A DNA stretch of 29,370 nucleotides, from NCBI GenBank assembly GCA_018971765.1, contig JAGXAA010000002.1, forward strand, positions 1-29,370, given 5' to 3'. The DNA comes from Patescibacteria group bacterium. GTDB lineage: Bacteria; Patescibacteriota; Minisyncoccia; Phycocordibacterales; GWA1-40-21. Positions 201-21,951 of this stretch are shown here, piece by piece (within the stretch, counting starts at the first letter, position 1; each line of letters opens with the position of its first letter). The notes under the pieces were generated by a model. That model did no database searches and was not told where the DNA came from. It saw only the letters and a list, made by a program, of their open reading frames with translations. A program made the position numbers and the translations under genes.

Positions 201-211
201 ATTTATCCGTG

Positions 212-299
212 AATTACGAAACGCAAAAATTTAAGTCCTCGGGTCGCAAAACAAGGCGTTTTTGCTCAACCAGACTGTAAATTTTTGCGTTTCGTAATT
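212..299. repeat. Palindromic intergenic repeat family A, copy 1 (88 nt), terminal inverted repeats aattacgaaacg / cgtttcgtaatt
   Basis: Near-identical copies occur at 10197-10296, 20979-21078 and 21757-21860, all in the same orientation. The conserved core is gtcctcgggtcgcaaaa - variable loop - gtttttgctcaaccagac. Confidence 0.85.
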
Positions 300-355
300 C
301 AAAGAATTTATAAAAGATTAACCCATTCTTTTTTTGTGAAAGAGATTTTAATTTT

Positions 356-1045
356 ATGGAAAACATTAAAAATAAAATAACGATTCGCGCGATGGCGTTT
401 TGGGGAATATCCGCTTTGGTTTTAGGCGGAATGGTTTTTGGAATGGTCAAATTTGCTTCGCGCAACTCCTTGAGCGATAAGACTCCTTTGTCTTTAACCG
501 CTCCGATGACCGAAGGCGATTGGATAAGAGGAGACAAGAACGCAAAAGTCATAATTACCGAATACAGCGATTTTCAATGTCCCGCCTGCGGAGCTTATTA
601 CGGGGTCGTTAAACAACTGCATAAAGATTTCGGAGACAAGCTCGCGATAGTTTATAAGCATTTTCCGCTCCGACAAAGACACGCGAACGCGGAGGCGGCC
701 GCTTTGTCCGCCGAAGCCGCGGGCGGGCAAGGCAAGTTTTGGGAAATGCACGATATGCTTTTTGAAAATCAAAAAGATTGGGAAACAGCCGGCAATGCCC
801 GAGAAATTTTCATCGGATACGCGAAAGAATTGGGTTTGAACTCCGAACGATTCAAACAAGACTTAAATTCAAAAGAATTAGAGCAAAAAATCGAAATTGA
901 TTATCAAAGCGGGGTCAAAGCCGGAGTGAATCACACGCCGACTTTCTTCTTGAACGGCAAGGAAATTCAAAATCCGCGGAGCTACGAAGAATTCAGAAAT
1001 ATCGTAGACGAAGCGGAATCAAAAAAATCCCAAAGTTCATCTTAA
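356..1045 (+). CDS. DsbA-family thiol:disulfide oxidoreductase (thioredoxin fold), N-terminally membrane-anchored
   Basis: N-terminal TM/signal anchor. The active-site motif FQCPACGAYY (CPAC) is present, along with the cis-Pro loop HTPTFFLNG typical of DsbA/BdbD-like proteins. Confidence 0.8.
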   Translation: MENIKNKITIRAMAFWGISALVLGGMVFGMVKFASRNSLSDKTPLSLTAPMTEGDWIRGDKNAKVIITEYSDFQCPACGAYYGVVKQLHKDFGDKLAIVYKHFPLRQRHANAEAAALSAEAAGGQGKFWEMHDMLFENQKDWETAGNAREIFIGYAKELGLNSERFKQDLNSKELEQKIEIDYQSGVKAGVNHTPTFFLNGKEIQNPRSYEEFRNIVDEAESKKSQSSS

Positions 1046-1050
1046 AAATA

Positions 1051-2586
1051 ATGAACAAAAAGATCAAAAGATTTTTTACACTACGGCAAATGTCAGCGGT
1101 TTTTAAGCAAGCATTCAATTCTCCGCTTTATTGGATTATCATGATTGAAGCCGCTTTGGCTGTCGGTGTTTTGTATTGGCAACTTCTTTCAAAAGTAACC
1201 ACCGTCATAAATTTTTACTTGATTTATCGGAATGCGCCTCTCTATCTTTATTCTTACGCCGGTCTTGCTTTTTTGAGTATGATTCTTTTTGGTCTAAACG
1301 CTGCCATTCTTGTTTATTTGTGGCGAGAATCAAAGTCAGCGAGCGCCAAATATTCAGGCGGAAGCGTTTTGGGGGCTTTCTTCGGCTCTTTAGGTTCCGC
1401 TTGCCCGTCTTGCGGAGCGTTTCTTTTGTCTTTTCTTGGAGTTAGCGGCGGGGTGGCGATGCTGCCGTTTCGAGGACTTGAGATTCTTTTTGCAAGCGTT
1501 GTAATCTTAGGAGTATCGCTTTTATTGTCATTGAGAAGGCTTGCCGCCGCCGATTCCTGCGAATTATGCCCAATTCAACCGGATAAATCTGGAAACGCCG
1601 CAACGACAAATGCGAGGAAAAGAAGCGATCATAATCAAAAGCTTTACTACCAAGCGTCTCTTGTCGTCTTATTTCTAATAATCTTTTTTGTCTGGCCTCT
1701 TTTTCAAAATGAAATTATTTCCGCAAGTTCGGACGCAAAAAGCGGCCTTCTTCTCCAAAATAAGATTAATTTCGAACAAAAAAATGAAGCAGGGAGCAAA
1801 TTATACGTTGAAACTTTGGAAAAAGTTTTGCCGAAAGGCGGATTTGAGACAGGTCTTGCGCTTAGCGGCATTGTTCCGAAGATGGTTTCTTACGGGATAA
1901 TTGACGCGGACAAATTCAGAAAGCTTTATGGCAGACGCGGTTTGGACGAAGGCAGTCTTTCCATTCTGACTCGGAATTCAAAAGAGCCCCTCAAAATCAA
2001 CGAAAACAATGCCGGACTTCTTCTAAACATATTTTGGCCTTTGGGTATTTCCAATAAGACGAATTTCAATGAGAAAAGCCGGCTCAAAGGCGATTCTCTG
2101 TTTAACTTCGCTTCAACCGGCGGCTGGACATTGGGCAAGGAAGATAATGGCGGAAAATATTTCAACAGATACGAGATAATAAAATTGACTGAGGAGCAAG
2201 AAGAGGTTGTTCTCAAAGTCGCCGGAAACACTTATCGCCCTTGTTGCGGCAACTCGACTTTCTTTCAGGACTGCAATCACGGCTCGGCCCTGCTCGGCGC
2301 CATAGAACTCGGAGCTTCTCAAGGAATGTCCGAAGAAGAACTTTACAAGCTGGCGCTGAAACTGAATTCATTCTGGTTTCCCGATACTTATTTAGAAACC
2401 GCCCTTTATTTCAAAATAGCCAAAAGCGTCGATTGGGAAGATGTTGGCCCGAAAGAAATAATGAGTTTTGAATATTCCAGCGGTCCCGGGTGGGCGAAAA
2501 ATGTCGCAAAAACCTTTCAAGAAATTTTGAAAGATAACCCCGATCTTTTGCCGAAGACGACGCAAGGAGGCGGCTGCGGAGTCTGA
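1051..2586 (+). CDS. Polytopic membrane protein with two CxxC motifs (CPSC inside a Gly-rich TM segment; CELC after TM4) and a ~290 aa Cys-containing C-terminal soluble domain. Candidate DsbA redox partner of unknown family
   Basis: There are about five hydrophobic helices in the first ~210 aa, with the motifs GSACPSCGAF and DSCELCP. The C-terminal domain carries RPCCGNSTFFQDCNHG. The start lies 6 nt after the dsbA-like stop, consistent with operonic coupling. Confidence 0.6.
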   Translation: MNKKIKRFFTLRQMSAVFKQAFNSPLYWIIMIEAALAVGVLYWQLLSKVTTVINFYLIYRNAPLYLYSYAGLAFLSMILFGLNAAILVYLWRESKSASAKYSGGSVLGAFFGSLGSACPSCGAFLLSFLGVSGGVAMLPFRGLEILFASVVILGVSLLLSLRRLAAADSCELCPIQPDKSGNAATTNARKRSDHNQKLYYQASLVVLFLIIFFVWPLFQNEIISASSDAKSGLLLQNKINFEQKNEAGSKLYVETLEKVLPKGGFETGLALSGIVPKMVSYGIIDADKFRKLYGRRGLDEGSLSILTRNSKEPLKINENNAGLLLNIFWPLGISNKTNFNEKSRLKGDSLFNFASTGGWTLGKEDNGGKYFNRYEIIKLTEEQEEVVLKVAGNTYRPCCGNSTFFQDCNHGSALLGAIELGASQGMSEEELYKLALKLNSFWFPDTYLETALYFKIAKSVDWEDVGPKEIMSFEYSSGPGWAKNVAKTFQEILKDNPDLLPKTTQGGGCGV

Positions 2587-4856: not shown

Positions 4857-5819
4857 ATGATTGATCATAACGACATAATTTTACCTTCAAAACCCAAAGT
4901 AATTCAAGAGAAAGATTCAAGCGGCGTCTATGAAATAGACGGATTATATCCGGGCTACGGTCATACGCTCGGGAATTCGCTCCGAAGAATCATATTGTTG
5001 TCGCTCAAGGGAGCGGCGATAACCTCAGTGAAGATAAAGGGGGTAAGTCATGAATTTTCATCAATAAGCGGCGTCAAAGAAGATGTCATAAATATCATTC
5101 TGAATTTGAAAAACATAAGAGTGAAGATGCTCACGGACGAGCCGCAGATTCTGAACCTGAAGGTTAAAGGCGTCAAGGACATCAAAGCGGGGGATATTGA
5201 CGCCCCCGGCCAGGTTGAAGTTTTGAATAAAGATTTATATGTAGCCGGCATTACCGAAAAAAATACCGAATTGTCGATTGAGATGCGGGTGGAAAAAGGA
5301 CTCGGCTATGTGCCCAAGGAAGTCCTTCAGAAAGACAGGGTTGAGGTGGGCGCGATTGTCCTTGACGCTTCATTCACTCCTATCCGCCGAGTGAATTATG
5401 AAGTTGAAAATATGCGAGTCGGCGACAGGACGGATTTCAATCGTTTGAGAATATTCATAGAGACCGACGGCACGATTTCTCCGAAAGAAGCTTTGGAGTC
5501 GTCCGTTCAGATTATGATTGCCCAGCTCAAGGCTATTGTCGGATTTGAAGAGAAAGAAAAGCCTGAGAGGGAAAAATCCATAGAGGCGAAAGAGCCGGAA
5601 GAAAAAAAGGAGGCGGATGTGGAATTCATGAAAACCAGAATAGAGTCCGTTGATCTTTCCACAAGGACGGTCAAAGCCCTTTCGAATGCGAACATAAGAA
5701 CCGTTGGCGGTCTCGCCAGGAAGAAAGAAAAAGATCTTCTCGAGATAGAAGGGCTCGGAACCAAAGGAATCCAAGAGATTAAAAAAACTTTATCCAATTT
5801 CGGCATAACGCTAAATTAA
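4857..5819 (+). CDS. rpoA: DNA-directed RNA polymerase subunit alpha
   Basis: 320 aa. [34 protein letters not shown] is the alpha N-terminal domain signature. It follows rpsD in the canonical alpha-operon order. Confidence 0.93.
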   Translation: [320 protein letters not shown]

Positions 5820-5886
5820 TAAGATAAAGCGATCTCTGGTTTTTTAATAAAATGAATTTTGGAGATAATAATCGGCAATATGAAAT

Positions 5887-6234
5887 ATGAAACATCATAA
5901 ATCAATGAGAACATTGGGAAGAGAAAGAAACCAGAGGAGAGCGCTCCTCAAGTCTCTCGCTTCTTCTTTGATAAAGAGCAAGAAAATCAAAACGACTTTG
6001 GCGAAAGCCAGAGAGCTTCGGCCGTTTATGGACAAGTTCGTCACTCTTTCCAAGAAAGGTGGCTTGAATTCAACAAGATTGATCTCGTCCAAGCTCGGGA
6101 AAGACAGCGCTATGATACTTGCGAAAGAAATCTCGTTGAATTACAAAGACAGGAAAGGCGGTTATACCAGAATAATCAAATTAAACCCCAGAAAGAGCGA
6201 CGGAGCTTTGATGGCGCAGATTGAATTCGTTTAA
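5887..6234 (+). CDS. rplQ: 50S ribosomal protein L17
   Basis: MKHHKSMRTLGRERNQRRALLKSLASSLIKSKKIKTTLAKARELRPFMDK is the L17 signature. It follows rpoA. Confidence 0.93.
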   Translation: MKHHKSMRTLGRERNQRRALLKSLASSLIKSKKIKTTLAKARELRPFMDKFVTLSKKGGLNSTRLISSKLGKDSAMILAKEISLNYKDRKGGYTRIIKLNPRKSDGALMAQIEFV

Positions 6235-6249
6235 TCCGGCGAAAGAATA

Positions 6250-6615
6250 TTGAATTTCAAAATTATGAAAAATATCATAGAAATAGACGCAAAAGGAAAG
6301 AAATTGGGCAGGGTGGCGAGCCAAGCCGCCGTTATTCTAATGGGCAAGAACTTGGTCAATCAAGCGAGGAATATCGTTCCGGAAGTTTCAGTCAGCATCT
6401 CAAATGTTTCCAAATTACAAATTGATTCCAAAAAGAAAAAAGAAAAAGATTACGCCTCTTTCTCCGGTTATCCGGGCGGACTCAAGAAAGAAAGCATGGA
6501 AAAGCTGATTGGCAGAAAGGGTTTCAGCGAGATTTTGAAACTGGCGATTTACGGGATGTTGCCGTCCAATAAATTGAGAGCGAAGATGATGAATAATTTA
6601 ACGATAATCGAATAA
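6250..6615 (+). CDS. rplM: 50S ribosomal protein L13
   Basis: IIEIDAKGKKLGRVASQAAVILMGK is an L13 signature. The true start may be the internal ATG at 6265. Confidence 0.9.
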   Translation: MNFKIMKNIIEIDAKGKKLGRVASQAAVILMGKNLVNQARNIVPEVSVSISNVSKLQIDSKKKKEKDYASFSGYPGGLKKESMEKLIGRKGFSEILKLAIYGMLPSNKLRAKMMNNLTIIE

Positions 6616-6618
6616 AAT

Positions 6619-7068
6619 ATGACGCCGATTAAAAATGAAGACAATAAAATGGAAAAAGATTCAAAAATGGAAAGAAAGAAGACCTACATAGAGGCCGTCG
6701 GAAGAAGGAAGACGGCCAGCGCCAGAGTCAGAATCGTTGAAAGCGCGAAAAACAATTTTAATGTTAATGGCAAAAGCTTGGAAGATTATTTCAAAGTAAA
6801 AGAGTTGACGGAGATTGCGAGTGAATCTTTGCTCAAATCCAAAACACCCGCGAATTTCAGCGTTTCCGCGAAAATAAAAGGAGGAGGAATAAGCGCTCAA
6901 GCTGAAGCTTTTAGACTCGGCATTGCCAGAGCGCTTGTGATCTACGATAATGAATTAAGAAAGAAATTGAAGGGCGCGGGATTTTTGAAGAGAGACCCGA
7001 GAGCGAAAGAAAGAAGGAAATTCGGCCTCAAAAAAGCCCGAAAAGCCCCGCAATGGTCAAAGAGATAA
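6619..7068 (+). CDS. rpsI: 30S ribosomal protein S9
   Basis: YIEAVGRRKTASARVRIV and the C-terminal ...KKARKAPQWSKR are S9 signatures. The gene follows rplM, the conserved rplM-rpsI pair. Confidence 0.93.
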   Translation: MTPIKNEDNKMEKDSKMERKKTYIEAVGRRKTASARVRIVESAKNNFNVNGKSLEDYFKVKELTEIASESLLKSKTPANFSVSAKIKGGGISAQAEAFRLGIARALVIYDNELRKKLKGAGFLKRDPRAKERRKFGLKKARKAPQWSKR

Positions 7069-7182
7069 TATTTTGCAAGATATTTTAGGTCTTTGGATCA
7101 TGGGAAGTTATGTAAAATATTTAAATTCTCCTCAATTTCCTGTCCGCTTGTCGCGGGGTTCTCGGTTTTTCTGAAAACACAT

Positions 7183-7208
7183 TGACTTTCCATTGGAATG
7201 GTATATTC
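7183..7208 (+). promoter_or_regulatory. Candidate sigma-70-type promoter in the S9/holB gap: TTGACT -35 and an extended -10 tgGTATATT
   Basis: ttgactttccattggaatggtatattct. The -35 hexamer is at 7183-7188. A TGn-TATATT element lies at 7199-7207, or TATTCT with a 16-nt spacer. It sits ~115 nt upstream of a small ORF at 7323. Confidence 0.35.
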
Positions 7209-7322
7209 TATTTTTAGACGCGCGTTTTATTAATTCTGAGAAAATGCAAAGGAGGCGGTGTTCCCGTCGTTCGTTGATTTTTATTATCTTGTTTTTATTT
7301 TTAAAATAGAGAGAGAGGGAAA

Positions 7323-7496
7323 ATGGCTAGGAGAAAAAAAGAAGAAAATAAAATAATGAGATCGGTTAAGAAGTCGGAAAGGAAATGTTTTAAAATTTGC
7401 TATTCCGATTCCAAGCAGCATTTTCGACCGCATGTAATTTTTAATTCTTTTGGTTTGAAGGAGGACACCGCATTACCGGCCATTGCTCAGAGGTAA
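7323..7496 (+). CDS. Small basic hypothetical protein (57 aa), apparently a stand-alone transcription unit
   Basis: Hand-translated: MARRKKEENKIMRSVKKSERKCFKICYSDSKQHFRPHVIFNSFGLKEDTALPAIAQR. It is below the ORF-track size cutoff. A GAGGG RBS lies 4 nt upstream. A candidate promoter is at 7183 and a strong intrinsic terminator at 7521. I see no match to any ribosomal protein I know. Confidence 0.35.
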   Translation: MARRKKEENKIMRSVKKSERKCFKICYSDSKQHFRPHVIFNSFGLKEDTALPAIAQR

Positions 7497-7520
7497 TTTA
7501 ATTATCCGCGATAAAATATT

Positions 7521-7557
7521 AGAGACTTCAGTTTGTATGACTGAAGTCTTTTTTATT
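7521..7557 (+). terminator. Rho-independent terminator
   Basis: agacttcag-ttgtat-ctgaagtct (perfect 9-bp stem) followed by TTTTTTATT. Confidence 0.7.
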
Positions 7558-7628
7558 ATTCTCGCAGAGAAGGGGTGGCTTTATTCATTTATTTGCTCTT
7601 TAAGCGGAAAGTGGTCTATAATTTTCAT

Positions 7629-8366
7629 ATGAATAAAGTTTTAGACTTGAAATCGGCCTTTCCGAATCTAATGGAAAAACTTCATCACGCTTATTGCTTG
7701 GAAGGGAAGCGCGAAAATATTTTGAAAGAATTGCTTGAATTTCTGGAAAATGTTTTACAATTTCGCCCCAAAGGGAACCCCGATTTTTATTACGGCGGTT
7801 TTGAAACTTTTGGAATTGACGACGGAAGGATAATCAATGAAACGCAGTCCAAAAAAGCCGTGTCTTCCGCGAGGAGAATTTTCATAATAGCGGCGAATTT
7901 TATCACGAAAGAGGCCCAAAACTCTCTTCTTAAAATGTTTGAAGAGCCGTCGGGCGGGGCGGTATTCTTTTTGATAATTTCTTCCGCGAGCATTCTTTTG
8001 CCGACTCTCCGTTCAAGGATGATAATTATGAACTTCAACCGCGTCTTAAGGTCGAGCGAAGCCGGTCAATCTGAGAAATCGGAAGATATTTTTGACGCAA
8101 AAAAATTCATCAAGTCCTCGATAGTTGAACGGCTGGCTATGGCAAAAAACATCTCGGATAAAATTGCCGATGAAGAAATAAGCAGATCGGTCGCCGCGGA
8201 TTTTTTAAACGGTGTTGAGAAAGAACTGGCGGGTAGGGCTGGAAAAGGCGGAGTCAAAAAAGAAGACATATTCATGTTCAATGAAATAGACAAATGCCGA
8301 AATTACGGGGGCGACAGATCACCCTCCATTAAAATGCTTCTTGAGCATATAGCGGTGACGCTTTAG
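7629..8366 (+). CDS. holB: DNA polymerase III delta-prime-like clamp-loader subunit (AAA+ fold; Walker A degenerate)
   Basis: HHAYCLEGKRENILKELLEFL resembles the HAYLF motif region. FIIAANFITKEAQNSLLKMFEEPSGGAVFFLIISSASILLPTLRSRM matches the sensor-1/SRC region of the delta-prime and gamma family. The start is taken at the internal ATG 7629 (MNKVLDL); the ORF-track start at 7575 overlaps the terminator. Confidence 0.5.
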   Translation: MNKVLDLKSAFPNLMEKLHHAYCLEGKRENILKELLEFLENVLQFRPKGNPDFYYGGFETFGIDDGRIINETQSKKAVSSARRIFIIAANFITKEAQNSLLKMFEEPSGGAVFFLIISSASILLPTLRSRMIIMNFNRVLRSSEAGQSEKSEDIFDAKKFIKSSIVERLAMAKNISDKIADEEISRSVAADFLNGVEKELAGRAGKGGVKKEDIFMFNEIDKCRNYGGDRSPSIKMLLEHIAVTL

Positions 8367-8446
8367 CTTGAGTTGGATTTTTAAACAGTCGATGGTATTA
8401 TGGAAGCATTATTTAAATACTTTTAACGGAAGTAAAAATAAAAAAT

Positions 8447-8998
8447 ATGTTATACGATTTTGGAAAATTAAAAAGCAAAACCGGGGAGGTTGAAGAATGG
8501 CTGAAGAAAGAATACGCGGGCATAAGGACGGGAATGGCGACTCCGGTCCTTCTTGACAATATTGTCGTTGAATCTTACGGAAGCAGGATGGGCATAAAGG
8601 AATTGGCGAGCGTGAGCACGGAAGACCCCAGGTCTATTCGCGTTTCTCCGTGGGATTCTTCGCAGACGGCAAGCATTGAAAAAGCCATCACTCTGGCGAA
8701 CCTCGGGGTTTCTCTAAGAGTCGATGAAAAAGGCATTCGAGTGTTATTTCCCGAACTGACCACTGAAAGAAGATCCTCTATCGTAAAAGTCGCCAACGGC
8801 AAACTTGAAGAAGCCAAAGTCTCTCTTCGCTCCGCCCGCGACGAGGCGTGGAGCGAAATTCAGAAGAAGGAAAAGGAGGGCGGGATGGGCGAGGATGATA
8901 AATTCAGATTAAAGAATGAAATGCAAAAAATCATTGACGACGCCGCCAAAAAACTGGAAGAAATCGCCGCAAAAAAAGACAGGGAGATAATGTCTTGA
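8447..8998 (+). CDS. frr: Ribosome recycling factor
   Basis: 183 aa with RRF signatures throughout: LKKEYAGIRTGMATPVLLDNIVVESYG...IRVSPWD...IEKAI...LGV..R.....IRV..PELTTERR. Confidence 0.92.
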   Translation: MLYDFGKLKSKTGEVEEWLKKEYAGIRTGMATPVLLDNIVVESYGSRMGIKELASVSTEDPRSIRVSPWDSSQTASIEKAITLANLGVSLRVDEKGIRVLFPELTTERRSSIVKVANGKLEEAKVSLRSARDEAWSEIQKKEKEGGMGEDDKFRLKNEMQKIIDDAAKKLEEIAAKKDREIMS

Positions 8999-9079
8999 AA
9001 CAGGTTTTAGGAAATAAAAATCAATAGTCATATATTCTTTTCCGCCTATAACCTAACGCCTAATACTAAAACCTAAAAA

Positions 9080-10165: not shown

Positions 10166-10196
10166 CGTTTGGAAGTATCTTTTCCAAATCACTTTG

Positions 10197-10296
10197 ATTA
10201 CGAAACGGAAAAATTTAAGTCCTCGGGTCGCAAAAACTCTTTGTCTTTCAAGGTGTTTTTGCTCAACCAGACTGTAAATTTTTCCGCTTCGTAATT
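10197..10296. repeat. Repeat family A, copy 2 (100 nt)
   Basis: gattacgaaacggaaaaatttaagtcctcgggtcgcaaaa...gtttttgctcaaccagactgtaaatttttccgcttcgtaatt. Intergenic between rseP and a secreted-protein gene. Confidence 0.85.
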
Positions 10297-10416
10297 CACA
10301 GAAATCATGGAAAAATTATTTTCTCTTCTTAAACTTGCCGTCTGAAATTCTTCGGCCTTTTTATTTTGACCAGCGTATTTTTTTCCTGTATCATTTCGGC
10401 TATGAGGCAAATTTGA

Positions 10417-20946: not shown

Positions 20947-21735
20947 ATGAAGAAAATAACTAATCTTAATGGATTATCAATTACGAAACGGGAAAATTCA
21001 GGTCCTCGGGTCGCAAAATCTCTTTGTTTCTTAAATGTTTTTGCTCAACCAGATCGTAAATTTTTCCGTTTCGTAATTAAAAGTAATAGATTAAAATTAT
21101 CGGCGATTATCCTTATATTTCTGATTATGCCGGCAATCACTTTCGCTTTTACGCGCGGTCCGGACGGTTATAATTATTACGACTATCAATCAAACTATCC
21201 TATTGGCGGCCTAATATTCGGCGGAGGCAGTTTCGGCGGCAGCGGTCTATTTTGTTCCGGCGGTTACTATCCCACTTTCTGCAGCGTTATTGAATTTTTC
21301 CTAGGTCTTATAGGAAAATCAATTCCGATTCTTATTTCCATCTCCATTATAGTTTTCGTCTGGGGCGTATTCAGATATGTTATGTACGAAGGAGAAGACA
21401 GGCAAAAAAGCAGAGATGTGATGATGTACGGGATCATCGGTCTGTTTGTAATGGTGTCGGTCTGGGGTTTGGTCGCGCTGGTATATAACACTTTCGGCCT
21501 AAATAATACCAACAACTCCATCTATTATTACGGCAGTGGCGGATATGGCATCGGAAGCGGCGGGGGAGGCGGATTTAGCGGCAGCGGGAGCGGATTGGGA
21601 AAGGCGGCTTTTGACGGCAGTAGCTCTGGCAACGGCGGCGCAAATGACAACACTTCCGGAAGTCCCTTTGGTTTGCCGCCAATCAAGCTCGCTCCCAGCG
21701 ATTTGTCCTTACCGCTTAACACTTCCATAAAATAA
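20947..21735 (+). CDS. Exported two-helix-hairpin protein, paralog C (TrbC/VirB2-pilin-like) with Cys pair and long Gly-rich tail. Repeat A copy 3 lies in-frame in its 5' end
   Basis: Cys pair FCSGGYYPTFC. Hairpin ISIIVFVWGVFRYVMYEGEDRQKSRDVMMYGIIGLFVMVSVWGLVALV. Tail YYYGSGGYGIGSGGGGGFSGSGSG. ATG 20947 (MKKIT...) resembles the paralog starts, but the frame runs through the 100-nt repeat. Alternatively the gene starts downstream at a non-ATG codon. The start is uncertain. Confidence 0.4.
   Translation: MKKITNLNGLSITKRENSGPRVAKSLCFLNVFAQPDRKFFRFVIKSNRLKLSAIILIFLIMPAITFAFTRGPDGYNYYDYQSNYPIGGLIFGGGSFGGSGLFCSGGYYPTFCSVIEFFLGLIGKSIPILISISIIVFVWGVFRYVMYEGEDRQKSRDVMMYGIIGLFVMVSVWGLVALVYNTFGLNNTNNSIYYYGSGGYGIGSGGGGGFSGSGSGLGKAAFDGSSSGNGGANDNTSGSPFGLPPIKLAPSDLSLPLNTSIK
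20979..21078. repeat. Repeat family A, copy 3 (100 nt), embedded in the open frame of paralog C
   Basis: aattacgaaacgggaaaattcaggtcctcgggtcgcaaaa...gtttttgctcaaccagatcgtaaatttttccgtttcgtaatt. Confidence 0.85.
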
Positions 21736-21756
21736 ACATAATAACTTATGATTCCG

Positions 21757-21860
21757 AATTACGAAACGCAAAATTTAGGTCCTCGGGTCGCAAAAACTCT
21801 TTAATGTTATCACAAGGTGTTTTTGCTCAACCAGACCATAAATTTTCGCGTTTCGTAATT
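21757..21860. repeat. Repeat family A, copy 4 (104 nt)
   Basis: A perfect 16-bp terminal inverted repeat ccgaattacgaaacgc / gcgtttcgtaattcgg with the same conserved core. It sits between paralogs C and D. Confidence 0.85.
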
Positions 21861-21951
21861 CGGGATTATGCACAGCCCGCTTGCCTTTTATTGTATGAGA
21901 GTTATAATTTATTAACTTGAAAGAAAGTCAATTATTAATTATCAAATTCTT

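What the first reader, a model, noticed from the sequence alone, without database searches (positions are those of the whole stretch)
356..2586. DsbA-like oxidoreductase coupled to a novel double-CxxC polytopic membrane protein (candidate DsbB/VKOR analogue)
The CPAC thioredoxin-fold protein is followed 6 nt later by a 511-aa protein. Its N-terminal ~210 aa form about five TM helices and contain two CxxC motifs. One, CPSC, lies in the middle of a Gly-rich hydrophobic segment (GSLGSACPSCGAFLLSF); the other, CELC, follows the next helix. The ~290-aa C-terminal soluble domain carries a CC-x8-C cluster (RPCCGNSTFFQDCNHG) and ends GGGCGV. This does not fit the Cys pattern of DsbB (CxxC plus a distant pair), VKOR (loop pair plus CxxC) or DsbD/CcdA (single Cys in two TMs). 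The tight linkage with DsbA suggests it could be the DsbA re-oxidant, or a reductive partner, in an organism that may lack canonical DsbB.
Basis: partly seen in the sequence, partly recalled or inferred. Interest (0 to 1): 0.55.

Follow-up and report, generated by a model that had tools for sequence, protein, structure and literature searches.

The report
Unannotated cysteine-relay membrane partner of DsbA
Next to a DsbA disulfide-enzyme gene in a candidate-phyla (Patescibacteria) genome lies a large, unannotated membrane protein with invariant cysteines running from the cytoplasm, through the membrane, to an outer domain; it sits where close relatives carry VKOR but resembles a mercury-transporter-type cysteine relay used in copper/mercury defence, so it is a real, new and untested kind of DsbA-linked membrane protein.

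Summary
ORF 356-1045 is a membrane-anchored DsbA (CPAC). After a 5-nt spacer, ORF 1051-2586 encodes a 511-aa protein with five TM helices, CPSC and CELC, a CC-x8-C-x-H site and a GGGCGV end.

All these cysteines are invariant or nearly so in a family of over 1000 Patescibacteria proteins with no Pfam, NCBIfam or PDB match.

Topology puts CPSC mid-membrane, CELC in the cytoplasm and the C-domain outside. That fits a trans-membrane relay, not a DsbB/VKOR layout.

In relatives the gene sits in copper/mercury-type clusters, including ArsR–Cys-rich protein–this gene–MerA operons. A free-standing copy of the N-domain directly follows DsbA in 10 of 12 loci.

Orthologues of this window's DsbA are followed by canonical VKOR in 4 of 6 loci. 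Here this gene occupies that slot and no VKOR is seen.

Verdict: a new MerT-like cysteine relay fused to a CcmH-like head and functionally tied to DsbA. Its cargo (electrons or soft metal) is unresolved, and a VKOR-replacing oxidant remains a minority possibility.

The parts
356..1045 (+). DsbA-like thiol:disulfide oxidoreductase, 229 aa. N-terminal membrane anchor at about aa 12-34, active site CPAC at aa 75-78 (nt 578-589), cis-Pro region HTPTF at aa 193-197.
   Evidence: Pfam Thioredoxin_4 5.9e-29 and DSBA 1.3e-15. Identical protein is named 'DsbA family protein' in NCBI. Orthologues at 64-78% identity share EYSDFQCPAC and are followed by VKOR in L103, L104, L105 and L107.
1046..1050 (+). 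5-nt spacer (AAATA) between the DsbA stop and the start of the 511-aa ORF. Suggests operon-type coupling.
   Evidence: No terminator-like site between the genes.
1051..1722 (+). N-terminal membrane domain of the 511-aa protein (aa 1-224). Five TM helices at about aa 26-46, 63-91, 103-130, 141-160 and 197-218. N-terminus inside, C-terminus outside.
   Evidence: Conserved hydrophobic segments and K+R counts across 118 homologues: N-term 6.1, loop 1-2 0.8, loop 2-3 3.8, loop 3-4 0.2, loop 4-5 6.1. Homologous to the free-standing ~187-aa family that follows DsbA (hhalign Prob 99%, E 3.6e-18).
1354..1590 (+). MerT-like unit (aa 102-180): TM3 carrying CPSC, TM4, and the cytoplasmic Cys pair.
   Evidence: hhalign against MerT scores 31.9, P 1.6e-4, in register for both Cys sites. 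None of 200 column-shuffled controls reach that score, maximum 22.7. NCBIfam MerT_CopZ_Se E 0.0057. Pfam MerT hits 3 of 56 members.
1402..1413 (+). CPSC (aa 118-121). Invariant C-P-x-C in the middle of the Gly-rich TM3, at a helix break.
   Evidence: C118, P119 and C121 are invariant. The AF2 model shows a break at 116-118 with a helix restarting at 119, but pLDDT there is only about 50-64.
1558..1569 (+). CELC (aa 170-173) in the cytoplasmic loop between TM4 and TM5.
   Evidence: C173 is invariant and C170 is 77% conserved. The loop is K/R-rich, mean 6.1. It aligns with MerT C76/C82.
1723..2583 (+). Extracytoplasmic all-alpha C-domain (aa 225-511).
   Evidence: AF2 pLDDT 86, pTM 0.88. The domain also occurs as a free-standing signal-anchored protein of about 320 aa. 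There are 457 representatives at 50% clustering. The closest is the 323-aa protein in L104, 69% identical.
2188..2382 (+). CcmH-like three-helix core (aa 380-444).
2242..2280 (+). CC-x8-C-x-H site (C398, C399, C408, H410).
   Evidence: All four residues are invariant. The motif CC.{6,10}C.H is present in 144 of 147 diverse representatives.
2566..2583 (+). Flexible C-terminal tail GGGCGV carrying invariant C509.
   Evidence: C509 and G510 are invariant. pLDDT is below 50. A Cys occurs in the last six residues in 127 of 147 representatives.

Best explanation
The 511-aa protein is a trans-membrane cysteine relay.

Shown:
- A cytoplasmic C-x-x-C lies after TM4.
- An invariant C-P-x-C lies in the middle of TM3.
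- The outer face carries an all-helical domain with a CcmH-like core, an invariant CC-x8-C-x-H site and a floppy C-terminal Cys tail.
- The membrane part is built like MerT plus two extra N-terminal helices, and it is not related to DsbB, VKOR or DsbD.

Inferred:
- The cysteines pass a thiol-bound cargo between the cytoplasm and the outer face.
- The tail Cys and the CC site are the outer hand-off points.
- The membrane-anchored DsbA-like protein, and in most relatives a ~200-aa Cys-rich secreted protein, are the outer partners or clients.
- The system is an accessory module for extracytoplasmic thiol and soft-metal (Cu/Hg) defence. The nearest logic is ScsB-ScsC or DsbD-CcmG-CcmH on one side and MerP-MerT-MerA on the other.

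Cargo: I put about 55:45 on reducing equivalents moving outward (thiol-disulfide exchange) versus a soft metal ion moving inward. For the subclade sitting in ArsR–Cys-rich protein–this gene–MerA operons, Hg(II) import is the most parsimonious reading. It is not a quinone-type, all-periplasmic-cysteine oxidase.
For: - Invariant cysteines across 118 and 56 homologues.
- N-in, 5-TM, C-out topology from the positive-inside rule over 118 sequences. Free-standing C-domains carry a signal anchor.
- MerT similarity is in register. hhalign scores 31.9, P 1.6e-4, and 0 of 200 shuffles reach it. There are weak HMM hits to MerT families. A MerT HMM run against all 2365 ORFs of the 80 loci finds, below E 0.03, only members of this family.
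- Controls are negative: DsbB P 0.16, DsbD P 0.019 (noise level), VKOR P 0.12.
- Context in 80 relatives:
  - Cys-rich ~200-aa protein directly upstream in 36 loci
  - MerA (TIGR02053, 499 bits against a cutoff of 454) in 11 loci, 5 of them 46-63 nt downstream
  - P1B ATPases in 11 loci (17 ORFs), ArsR in 10, CsoR-like in 6, cupredoxin in 9, CopY/BlaR pairs
- No MerT or MerP is present in the MerA-linked loci.
- The free-standing N-domain directly follows DsbA in 10 of 12 loci.
- In CopY-BlaR-DsbA-X operons, X is this module (L015) or a CcdA-like protein (L014).
- Free-standing C-domains sit next to CcdA-like proteins.
- About a quarter of members add a cytoplasmic Cys-rich DUF7128 finger.
Against: - No experiment exists. 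All similarities to MerT and CcmH are below the family thresholds.
- The AF2 model is weak exactly around the TM CPxC, pLDDT 50-64.
- The free-standing N-domain family alone shows no MerT signal, P 0.28.
- The window copy has no MerA, no Cys-rich partner and no metal genes nearby.
- Its DsbA is orthologous to VKOR-paired DsbAs, which are presumably oxidases. A reductive relay beside an oxidase would be futile unless DsbA is not its client.
- C170 is only 77% conserved, and the free-standing module has a single cytoplasmic Cys.
- The cargo cannot be decided from sequence.
Confidence: 0.5

Rival explanations
1. VKOR/DsbB analogue. The N-domain, fused here and free-standing elsewhere, is a non-homologous membrane re-oxidant of DsbA that has displaced VKOR. 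The outer CC site and tail Cys would shuttle electrons from DsbA to the membrane CPxC, and from there to a quinone or other acceptor.
For: - In 4 of 6 loci holding the orthologous DsbA (64-78% identity, same EYSDFQCPAC site, same upstream 67-aa and DoxX genes), the gene overlapping the DsbA stop is a canonical VKOR.
- In the window that slot holds this gene, and no VKOR is found in the window or the 21.5-kb source locus.
- L104 has VKOR together with a C-domain that lacks the N-domain. The window has the N-domain without VKOR.
- DsbA followed by the free-standing N-domain recurs in 10 of 12 loci, with no VKOR annotated or detected in the flanks examined (±4-6 kb).
- Only 1 of 80 loci with this family has a VKOR-like ORF.
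Against: - No conserved Cys lies in either short outer loop of the TM domain.
- The second CxxC is cytoplasmic and its C173 is invariant. A quinone-linked oxidase does not need that.
- There is no sequence or fold similarity to VKOR or DsbB.
- A thiol path to the reducing cytoplasm would reduce DsbA, not oxidise it (inference from known redox potentials).
- The VKOR/N-domain complementarity rests on one genome and could be a simple deletion of VKOR-120aa-peroxiredoxin.
- The rest of the genome was not searched.
- 2 of the 6 relatives also lack VKOR at the locus without having this gene.
Confidence: 0.15
2. No relay. The protein is a Cys-rich exported client of DsbA. Its cysteines form structural disulfides or a structural metal site. 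It is encoded beside DsbA only because it needs oxidative folding. Its real activity would lie in the 290-aa outer domain and would be unrelated to thiol transfer.
For: - The C-domain exists mostly as a free-standing anchored protein without the N-domain.
- It lies in the DsbA-VKOR-peroxiredoxin cluster of L104.
- The outer domain is large and very highly conserved, as an enzyme would be.
Against: - This does not explain the invariant mid-membrane C-P-x-C or the cytoplasmic Cys. DsbA cannot reach either.
- It does not explain the free-standing N-domain family that always sits between DsbA and the Cys-rich protein.
- A Cys on a disordered extreme C-terminal tail is typical of shuttle arms, not of structural disulfides.
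Confidence: 0.12
3. Thiol-based sensor or signal transducer. The cysteines would sense extracytoplasmic Cu/Hg or redox state and transmit it to the cytoplasmic loop or Zn-finger, which would control the neighbouring metal regulons.
For: - Regulators are frequently adjacent: ArsR, CsoR and CopY/BlaR.
- About 25% of members carry a cytoplasmic DUF7128 zinc-finger-like domain.
Against: - There is no recognisable output domain.
- The window copy has only a 24-aa cytoplasmic N-terminus and a short loop.
- The regulators found nearby are complete one-component sensors in their own right.
- The MerT-like register argues for transfer, not signalling.
Confidence: 0.06

Closest known systems
MerT (mercuric ion transporter, PF02411) with MerP and MerA
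   Same: - The Cys pair sits in a small-residue TM helix: ASACC in MerT, (A/G)SACPxCG here. A hairpin helix follows, then a cytoplasmic Cys pair followed by Pro, then a further TM. The alignment is in register.
- The protein is the only MerT-like ORF in ArsR–X–this gene–MerA operons of one subclade.
- A flexible Cys tail is reminiscent of the C-terminal CC of MerA.
   Different: - It has CPxC instead of vicinal CC.
- It has two extra N-terminal TM helices and a 290-aa outer domain in place of a separate MerP (HMA fold).
- It scores below every MerT family cutoff.
- Most members, including this window's, have no MerA nearby.
- It is tightly linked to DsbA-like genes, which classical mer operons lack.
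DsbD/CcdA/ScsB membrane reductant conduits with their Trx-fold partners (DsbC/G, CcmG, ScsC), including the Scs copper-tolerance system
   Same: - The logic matches: cysteines on both sides of and within the membrane, a Trx-fold DsbA-like partner encoded alongside, and a copper-resistance gene context.
- In CopY-BlaR-DsbA-X operons the module and a CcdA-like protein occupy the same slot.
- That Scs proteins both relay electrons and bind Cu(I) is from my own knowledge and was not checked here.
   Different: - There is no sequence relation; hhalign P 0.019 is at the noise level, and there are no Pfam DsbD hits.
- The membrane cysteines are a CxxC on one helix, not single cysteines on two inverted-repeat helices.
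- The cytoplasmic cysteines are part of the protein itself.
- The outer domain is helical and CcmH-like, not an Ig or Trx fold.
CcmH/NrfF/CycL (PF03918), the non-thioredoxin three-helix thiol oxidoreductase of cytochrome c maturation
   Same: - The order of elements matches: helix, R-x-Cys loop, (N/Q)N(S), D-(S/C)-N, helix, G-x-S-x-x-E-(I/L) helix.
- Both are extracytoplasmic and membrane-tethered.
   Different: - It has PCC plus a third Cys and a His instead of the RCxxC motif.
- The core is embedded in a domain of about 290 aa.
- There is no Pfam hit, and sequence support is only P about 0.01.
- No CcmF or heme lyase genes were seen nearby.
- Patescibacteria generally lack c-type cytochromes; this is from my own knowledge.
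VKOR (PF07884) and DsbB (PF02600), the membrane re-oxidants of DsbA
   Same: - Gene position matches: directly after DsbA. In this window the gene occupies exactly the slot that VKOR holds after the orthologous DsbA in relatives.
- A CxxC sits in a TM helix.
   Different: - There is no sequence or fold similarity.
- There is no outer-loop Cys pair.
- The CxxC is mid-membrane rather than at the outer end.
- The protein has an additional invariant cytoplasmic Cys.
- No quinone site is evident.

Membership tests
DsbA / Thioredoxin_4 (ORF 356-1045) | HMM match above the curated cutoff, plus a CxxC active site and a cis-Pro loop in a Trx fold with a helical insertion | tested here: met
   PF13462 scores 101.8 bits against a cutoff of 23.2, and PF01323 scores 58.1 bits against a cutoff of 25.6. 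CPAC is at aa 75-78 and T-P at aa 194-195.
VKOR (PF07884) | Sequence match to the family | tested here: not met
   No Pfam hit at E<=1 in the window protein or in any of 56 homologues. hhalign against four Patescibacteria VKORs gives P 0.12. A VKOR HMM finds nothing in the window.
VKOR (PF07884) | Outer-loop Cys pair plus a CxxC at the outer end of TM4, with all four Cys extracytoplasmic | tested here: not met
   The outer loops 1-2 and 3-4 carry no conserved Cys. CPSC is central in TM3 and CELC is in the K/R-rich cytoplasmic loop.
VKOR / DsbB | Four-helix-bundle fold similar to solved DsbB or VKOR structures | tested here: not met
   [not shown]
VKOR / DsbB | Quinone-dependent re-oxidation of DsbA | not testable with these tools
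   This needs biochemistry or complementation of an E. coli dsbB mutant.
DsbB (PF02600) | Sequence match and two periplasmic Cys pairs | tested here: not met
   No Pfam hit. hhalign against E. coli DsbB gives P 0.16. Topology as described above.
DsbD / CcdA (PF02683, PF13386) | Sequence match, with one reactive Cys in each of two inverted-repeat TM helices | tested here: not met
   No Pfam hit. hhalign against the E. coli DsbD TM domain scores 22.2, P 0.019, which is within the range of shuffled controls, maximum 22.7. Both membrane Cys lie on one helix.
DoxX (PF07681) | Sequence match | tested here: not met
   No hit in the protein. A separate DoxX gene lies 1.3 kb upstream of DsbA in the source contig.
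MerT (PF02411 / NF045683) | HMM match above the curated cutoff | tested here: not met
   NF045683 scores E 0.0057, 16 bits, against a cutoff of 375. PF02411 hits only 3 of 56 members, best E 0.0012.
MerT | Cys pair in the first TM of a three-TM unit and a cytoplasmic Cys pair between the second and third TM, alignable in register | tested here: met
   hhalign aligns aa 102-180 to MerT 8-89, score 31.9, P 1.6e-4. CPxC aligns to the MerT CC, and C170/C173 align to C76/C82. None of 200 shuffles reach that score. The motif differs: CPxC here, CC in MerT.
MerT | Encoded in a mer operon with MerA | tested here: inconclusive
   This is met for a subclade, the ArsR–Cys-rich protein–this gene–MerA loci L019, L029, L032, L049, L063 and L012. 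It is not met for the window or its clade's immediate context.
MerT | Hg(II) uptake activity | not testable with these tools
   This needs a Hg hypersensitivity or uptake assay.
CcmH (PF03918) | HMM match and the LRCxxC active-site motif | tested here: not met
   No Pfam hit. The motif is YRPCC rather than LRCxxC, and only the second Cys aligns.
CcmH | Three-helix-bundle fold with the Cys loop between helices 1 and 2 | tested here: inconclusive
   [not shown]
CcmH | Association with the CcmF/NrfE heme lyase and c-type cytochrome maturation | tested here: not met
   No such genes appear among the recurrent neighbours in the 80 loci.

The most novel reading that the evidence does not exclude
The five- or four-TM CPxC module, fused here and free-standing after DsbA in many Patescibacteria, is a third, non-homologous class of membrane redox partner for DsbA. 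In this genome it has displaced VKOR. It would link DsbA to the cytoplasmic thiol pool or another acceptor through a mid-membrane CxxC. The CcmH-like head and its Cys tail would act as the shuttle arm. That would be a DsbA recycling route that does not work like DsbB or VKOR.
Probability: 0.17. Interest if true: 0.85.

Novelty: new variant of a known kind. Interest (0 to 1): 0.6.

Why it matters
- Three large, sharply conserved and completely unannotated protein families travel together with DsbA and with Cu/Hg resistance genes across Patescibacteria. They are the 5-TM relay fused to the outer domain, the free-standing 4-TM module, and the Cys-rich ~200-aa secreted protein.
- If the relay imports Hg(II), it is the missing transporter of the candidate-phyla mer operons. 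MerA in these phyla has been catalogued (PMC8261052), but no partner has been described.
- If the relay exchanges electrons with DsbA, it is a new solution to disulfide management in organisms with minimal respiratory equipment. It would then be positionally interchangeable with VKOR and with CcdA-like proteins.
- Either outcome is directly testable in E. coli, using a dsbB or dsbD mutant or a Hg hypersensitivity assay. Either would give the first function to a domain with an unusual CC-x8-C-x-H plus C-terminal Cys-tail chemistry.

Tried and rejected
- Pfam, NCBIfam and PDB sequence searches of the single protein, of 56 homologues and of a profile gave nothing above threshold.
- Foldseek against PDB with the full-length model gave only spurious membrane-protein hits, E>0.6.
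- The AlphaFold database libraries were not available.
- I searched for informative domain fusions of the free-standing N-domain family. The top 120 hits are all about 187 aa with no Pfam domain.
- The idea that the Cys-rich ~200-aa neighbour is a paralogue of the C-domain found only a 23-column match (LTPEQ...PCC, P 0.0017) and no CcmH signal. I kept it as a weak lead and did not claim it.
- Non-Patescibacteria contexts of the free-standing C-domain (Geminicoccaceae, Hyphomicrobiaceae) were uninformative, apart from one TlpA/Redoxin-type neighbour.
- The possibility that the N-domain is a divergent VKOR, DsbB or DsbD was rejected by profile comparisons with shuffled controls.
- Literature searches for a DsbA partner in candidate phyla, for DUF7128 and for mer transporters in candidate phyla found no description.
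Full report
**Observation**

ORF 356-1045 (229 aa) is followed, after a 5-nt AAATA spacer, by ORF 1051-2586 (511 aa). ORF1 is a clear DsbA/Thioredoxin_4 protein with an N-terminal membrane anchor and CPAC at aa 75-78.

ORF2 contains all the quoted motifs:
- CPSC at aa 118-121
- CELC at aa 170-173
- CC-x8-C-x-H at aa 398-410
- a GGGCGV end

Downstream lie infA, rpmJ, rpsM, rpsK, rpsD, rpoA and rplQ. The rest of the window is housekeeping: MreB/C, PBP2, RsmH and others. The identical protein is a 'hypothetical protein' of a Patescibacteria metagenome-assembled genome.

**The family**

The 511-aa protein has no Pfam, NCBIfam or PDB-sequence match, alone or as a profile. It nonetheless has more than 1000 homologues at 90% clustering. 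Relatives occur in 443 GTDB species genomes, almost all Patescibacteria.

In 118 full-length members C118, C121, C173, C398, C399, C408 and C509 are 100% conserved. C170 is 77% conserved. P119 and H410 are invariant in the 56-sequence alignment. The cysteine pattern is therefore under strong selection.

**Topology**

Five hydrophobic segments are conserved. Mean K+R counts are 6.1 (N-terminus), 0.8 (loop 1-2), 3.8 (loop 2-3), 0.2 (loop 3-4) and 6.1 (loop 4-5).

This gives an N-in topology with a C-out domain. It agrees with the fact that the C-domain also exists as a signal-anchored free-standing protein.

Three placements follow:
- CPSC is in the centre of TM3, at a helix break in the AF2 model. 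Confidence is low there.
- CELC is cytoplasmic.
- The CC-x8-C-x-H site and the tail Cys are outside.

Cysteines therefore lie on both faces and inside the membrane. That is the layout of a relay such as MerT or DsbD. It is not the layout of DsbB or VKOR, whose reactive cysteines all face outward.

**What the two halves resemble**

*N-domain*
- Profile-profile comparison with MerT gives score 31.9, P 1.6e-4. My recalled MerT sequence was validated at 98% identity to annotated merT genes, and two divergent plasmid MerTs were added.
- The CPxC aligns on the MerT CC, and C170/C173 align on MerT C76/C82.
- None of 200 column-shuffled MerT alignments reached that score; the maximum was 22.7.
- The same query against E. 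coli DsbB (P 0.16), the DsbD membrane domain (score 22.2, within noise) and four Patescibacteria VKORs (P 0.12) is negative.

*C-domain*
- The AF2 model has pLDDT 86.
- It has no Foldseek match in the PDB.
- An alignment against ten real CcmH/NrfF sequences matches aa 380-431 to CcmH 9-61. C399 falls on the second CcmH Cys, and C408 on the Ser of the DSNA motif.
- Sequence support is weak: P 0.014, and 1 of 150 shuffles reaches the score.

I treat the MerT-like architecture as moderately supported. I treat the CcmH-like core as suggestive only.

**Gene context in relatives**

In 80 loci the recurrent neighbours are:
- a ~200-aa secreted Cys-rich protein with motifs GSCCSPM, GPCCCKCWRW and DGCGG, translationally coupled upstream in 36 loci. 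This is the commonest neighbour, and it has no Pfam match.
- MerA in 11 loci (TIGR02053, 499 bits, above the cutoff of 454, with a C-terminal CC). It is 46-63 nt downstream in five of them.
- P1B ATPases in 11 loci (17 ORFs)
- ArsR/SmtB regulators in 10 loci
- CsoR-like regulators in 6 loci
- cupredoxins in 9 loci
- CopY/BlaR pairs and Met-rich proteins

One subclade has the classical mer layout: ArsR, the Cys-rich protein, this gene, then MerA. In these loci no MerT or MerP is present, and this family is essentially the only thing a MerT HMM detects.

MerA in candidate phyla is documented (PMC8261052). I found no description of a transporter for these operons.

DsbA lies within 6 kb in only 12 of the 80 loci.

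**The DsbA link**

A free-standing homologue of the N-domain exists. It is about 187 aa with four TM helices, a GCAACG motif and one C-terminal cytoplasmic Cys. hhalign against the N-domain gives Prob 99%, E 3.6e-18. It forms another family of over 1000 unannotated proteins.

In 10 of the 12 loci I could inspect, this module starts at or within a few nucleotides of a DsbA stop codon. Where the sequence continues downstream, the Cys-rich protein usually follows. So the membrane module, rather than the whole fusion, is the DsbA-linked unit.

In CopY-BlaR-DsbA-X operons, X is this module in L015 and a CcdA-like protein with CC pairs in L014.

**The window's own lineage**

The window DsbA has the site EYSDFQCPAC, and its orthologues are 64-78% identical. 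They lie in a syntenic cluster: giant surface protein, a ~100-aa gene, a 67-aa gene, DoxX, then DsbA. The same genes lie upstream in the source contig.

In four of six such loci the gene overlapping the DsbA stop by 20-26 nt is a canonical VKOR, with a C-x6-C loop and a CLYC motif. A 120-aa membrane protein and a peroxiredoxin follow.

One of these loci, L104, also carries a free-standing C-domain that is 69% identical to window aa 190-511.

In the window the VKOR, 120-aa and peroxiredoxin genes are absent, and the 511-aa fusion sits in VKOR's place. No VKOR is detectable in the window or the 21.5-kb source locus. Only 1 of the 80 loci with this family has a VKOR-like ORF.

It rests on one genome, it could be a simple deletion, and the remainder of the genome was not searched.

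**Synthesis**

I consider these points shown:
- a strongly conserved trans-membrane arrangement of cysteines
- MerT-like membrane architecture without membership of MerT, DsbB, VKOR or DsbD
- an extracytoplasmic helical domain with an invariant CC-x8-C-x-H site and a disordered Cys tail. The motif is present in 144 of 147 diverse representatives and the tail Cys in 127 of 147.
- a recurrent genetic link of the membrane module to DsbA, and of the whole system to Cu/Hg resistance genes

I infer that the protein relays a thiol-bound cargo across the membrane.

The evidence divides by cargo:
- For reducing equivalents (DsbD/ScsB-like): the DsbA coupling, the CcmH-like head, and interchange with CcdA-like proteins.
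- For a soft metal ion (MerT-like): the MerT register, the mer operons that lack any other transporter, and the metal context.

Sequence cannot separate the two. I put them at roughly 55:45.

A quinone-type DsbA oxidase is disfavoured by the topology and by the invariant cytoplasmic Cys. The VKOR replacement keeps it alive at about 15%.

**Novelty and score**

I found nothing in Pfam, NCBIfam, the PDB or the searchable literature that describes this family. It is best classed as a new variant of a known kind, a cysteine-relay membrane protein, with a new outer domain and a new partnership.

I set interest at 0.6. The family is large, its chemistry is distinctive, and the competing functions can be separated with standard E. 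coli assays.

Noticed in passing
window 210-301, 10195-10297, 21756-21861; partial copy 20985-21095: A palindromic intergenic repeat of about 90-105 nt, with arms of roughly 23 nt (GAATTACGAAACGCAAAAATTTA) and a conserved core (GTCCTCGGGTCGCAAAA...GTTTTTGCTCAACCAGAC). The copy just upstream of DsbA folds into a hairpin with a 24-bp main stem (dG -45 kcal/mol, z -7.8). There is no Rfam match. It looks like a REP/MITE-like element or a terminator/insulator hairpin of this genome.
   Followed up: partly
L043:5311-5922, L093:5558-6175, L095:5576-6184 (36 of the 80 loci): A highly conserved secreted Cys-rich protein of about 200 aa, with motifs GNSSCSG, GSCCSPM, EKGPCCCKCWRW and SDGCGG plus a His-rich end. 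It has no Pfam or NCBIfam match. It is translationally coupled upstream of the 511-aa family or downstream of the free-standing N-domain. A short LTPEQ...PCC stretch resembles the C-domain (P 0.0017 over 23 columns only).
   Followed up: partly
L001:4937-5500, L074:4038-4601, L093:5001-5561, L095:5001-5579, L097:4001-4564: A free-standing 4-TM homologue of the N-domain, about 187 aa, with GCAACGS in TM3 and a single C-terminal Cys. It forms its own family of over 1000 unannotated proteins. It is almost always encoded immediately after a CPFC-type DsbA and usually before the Cys-rich protein.
   Followed up: yes
L103:3489-6089, L104:841-3421, L105:3484-5728, L107:3959-6568: A conserved Patescibacteria redox cluster, DoxX - DsbA - VKOR - 120-aa four-TM protein - 2-Cys peroxiredoxin. 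VKOR overlaps DsbA by 20-26 nt. These candidate-phyla bacteria therefore do encode canonical VKOR. DoxX is consistently the gene before DsbA.
   Followed up: partly
L019, L029, L032, L049, L063 (about 5000-9000 in each locus); L012:1-5267: Mer-type operons of candidate phyla: ArsR - Cys-rich 200-aa protein - 511-aa family member - MerA. The MerA is core-only, about 466 aa, with a C-terminal CC. These operons have no MerT, MerP, MerC or MerF. They seem undescribed in the mer literature I could search.
   Followed up: partly
N-termini of P0002, P0080, P0094, P0120 and about 30 of 118 homologues; also L077:2814-3983: A cytoplasmic Cys-rich zinc-finger-like extension (YQCEECGFQYADKEWAEKCEAWCKEHxSCN) matching Pfam DUF7128. 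The best score is 27.2 bits against a cutoff of 25.7. It is fused to the N-terminus of many family members but is absent from the window protein.
   Followed up: partly
L029:1512-2348, L014, L008, L017, L071: CcdA-like membrane proteins of about 278 aa with vicinal CC pairs in two TM helices (FAPCCITF and SACCAPV), and no NCBIfam hit. They sit next to free-standing C-domain paralogues. In L014 one lies directly after DsbA.
   Followed up: no
L081:8111-9150 (source contig, just upstream of window position 356; the 191-aa ORF ends at window 200): Two small secreted proteins lie between DoxX and DsbA only in this genome. One is 148 aa and extremely acidic; the other is 191 aa and Ser/Thr-rich. 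Relatives have DoxX directly before DsbA.
   Followed up: no
L098:243-878; clusters 'HWHP180' such as L045:3740-4285 and L093:6190-6747: Anchored proteins of about 180 aa with HWHP...HTHD motifs recur between the DsbA-linked module and the 511-aa gene. In L098 a DUF3105 protein takes the position directly upstream of the free-standing module.
   Followed up: no
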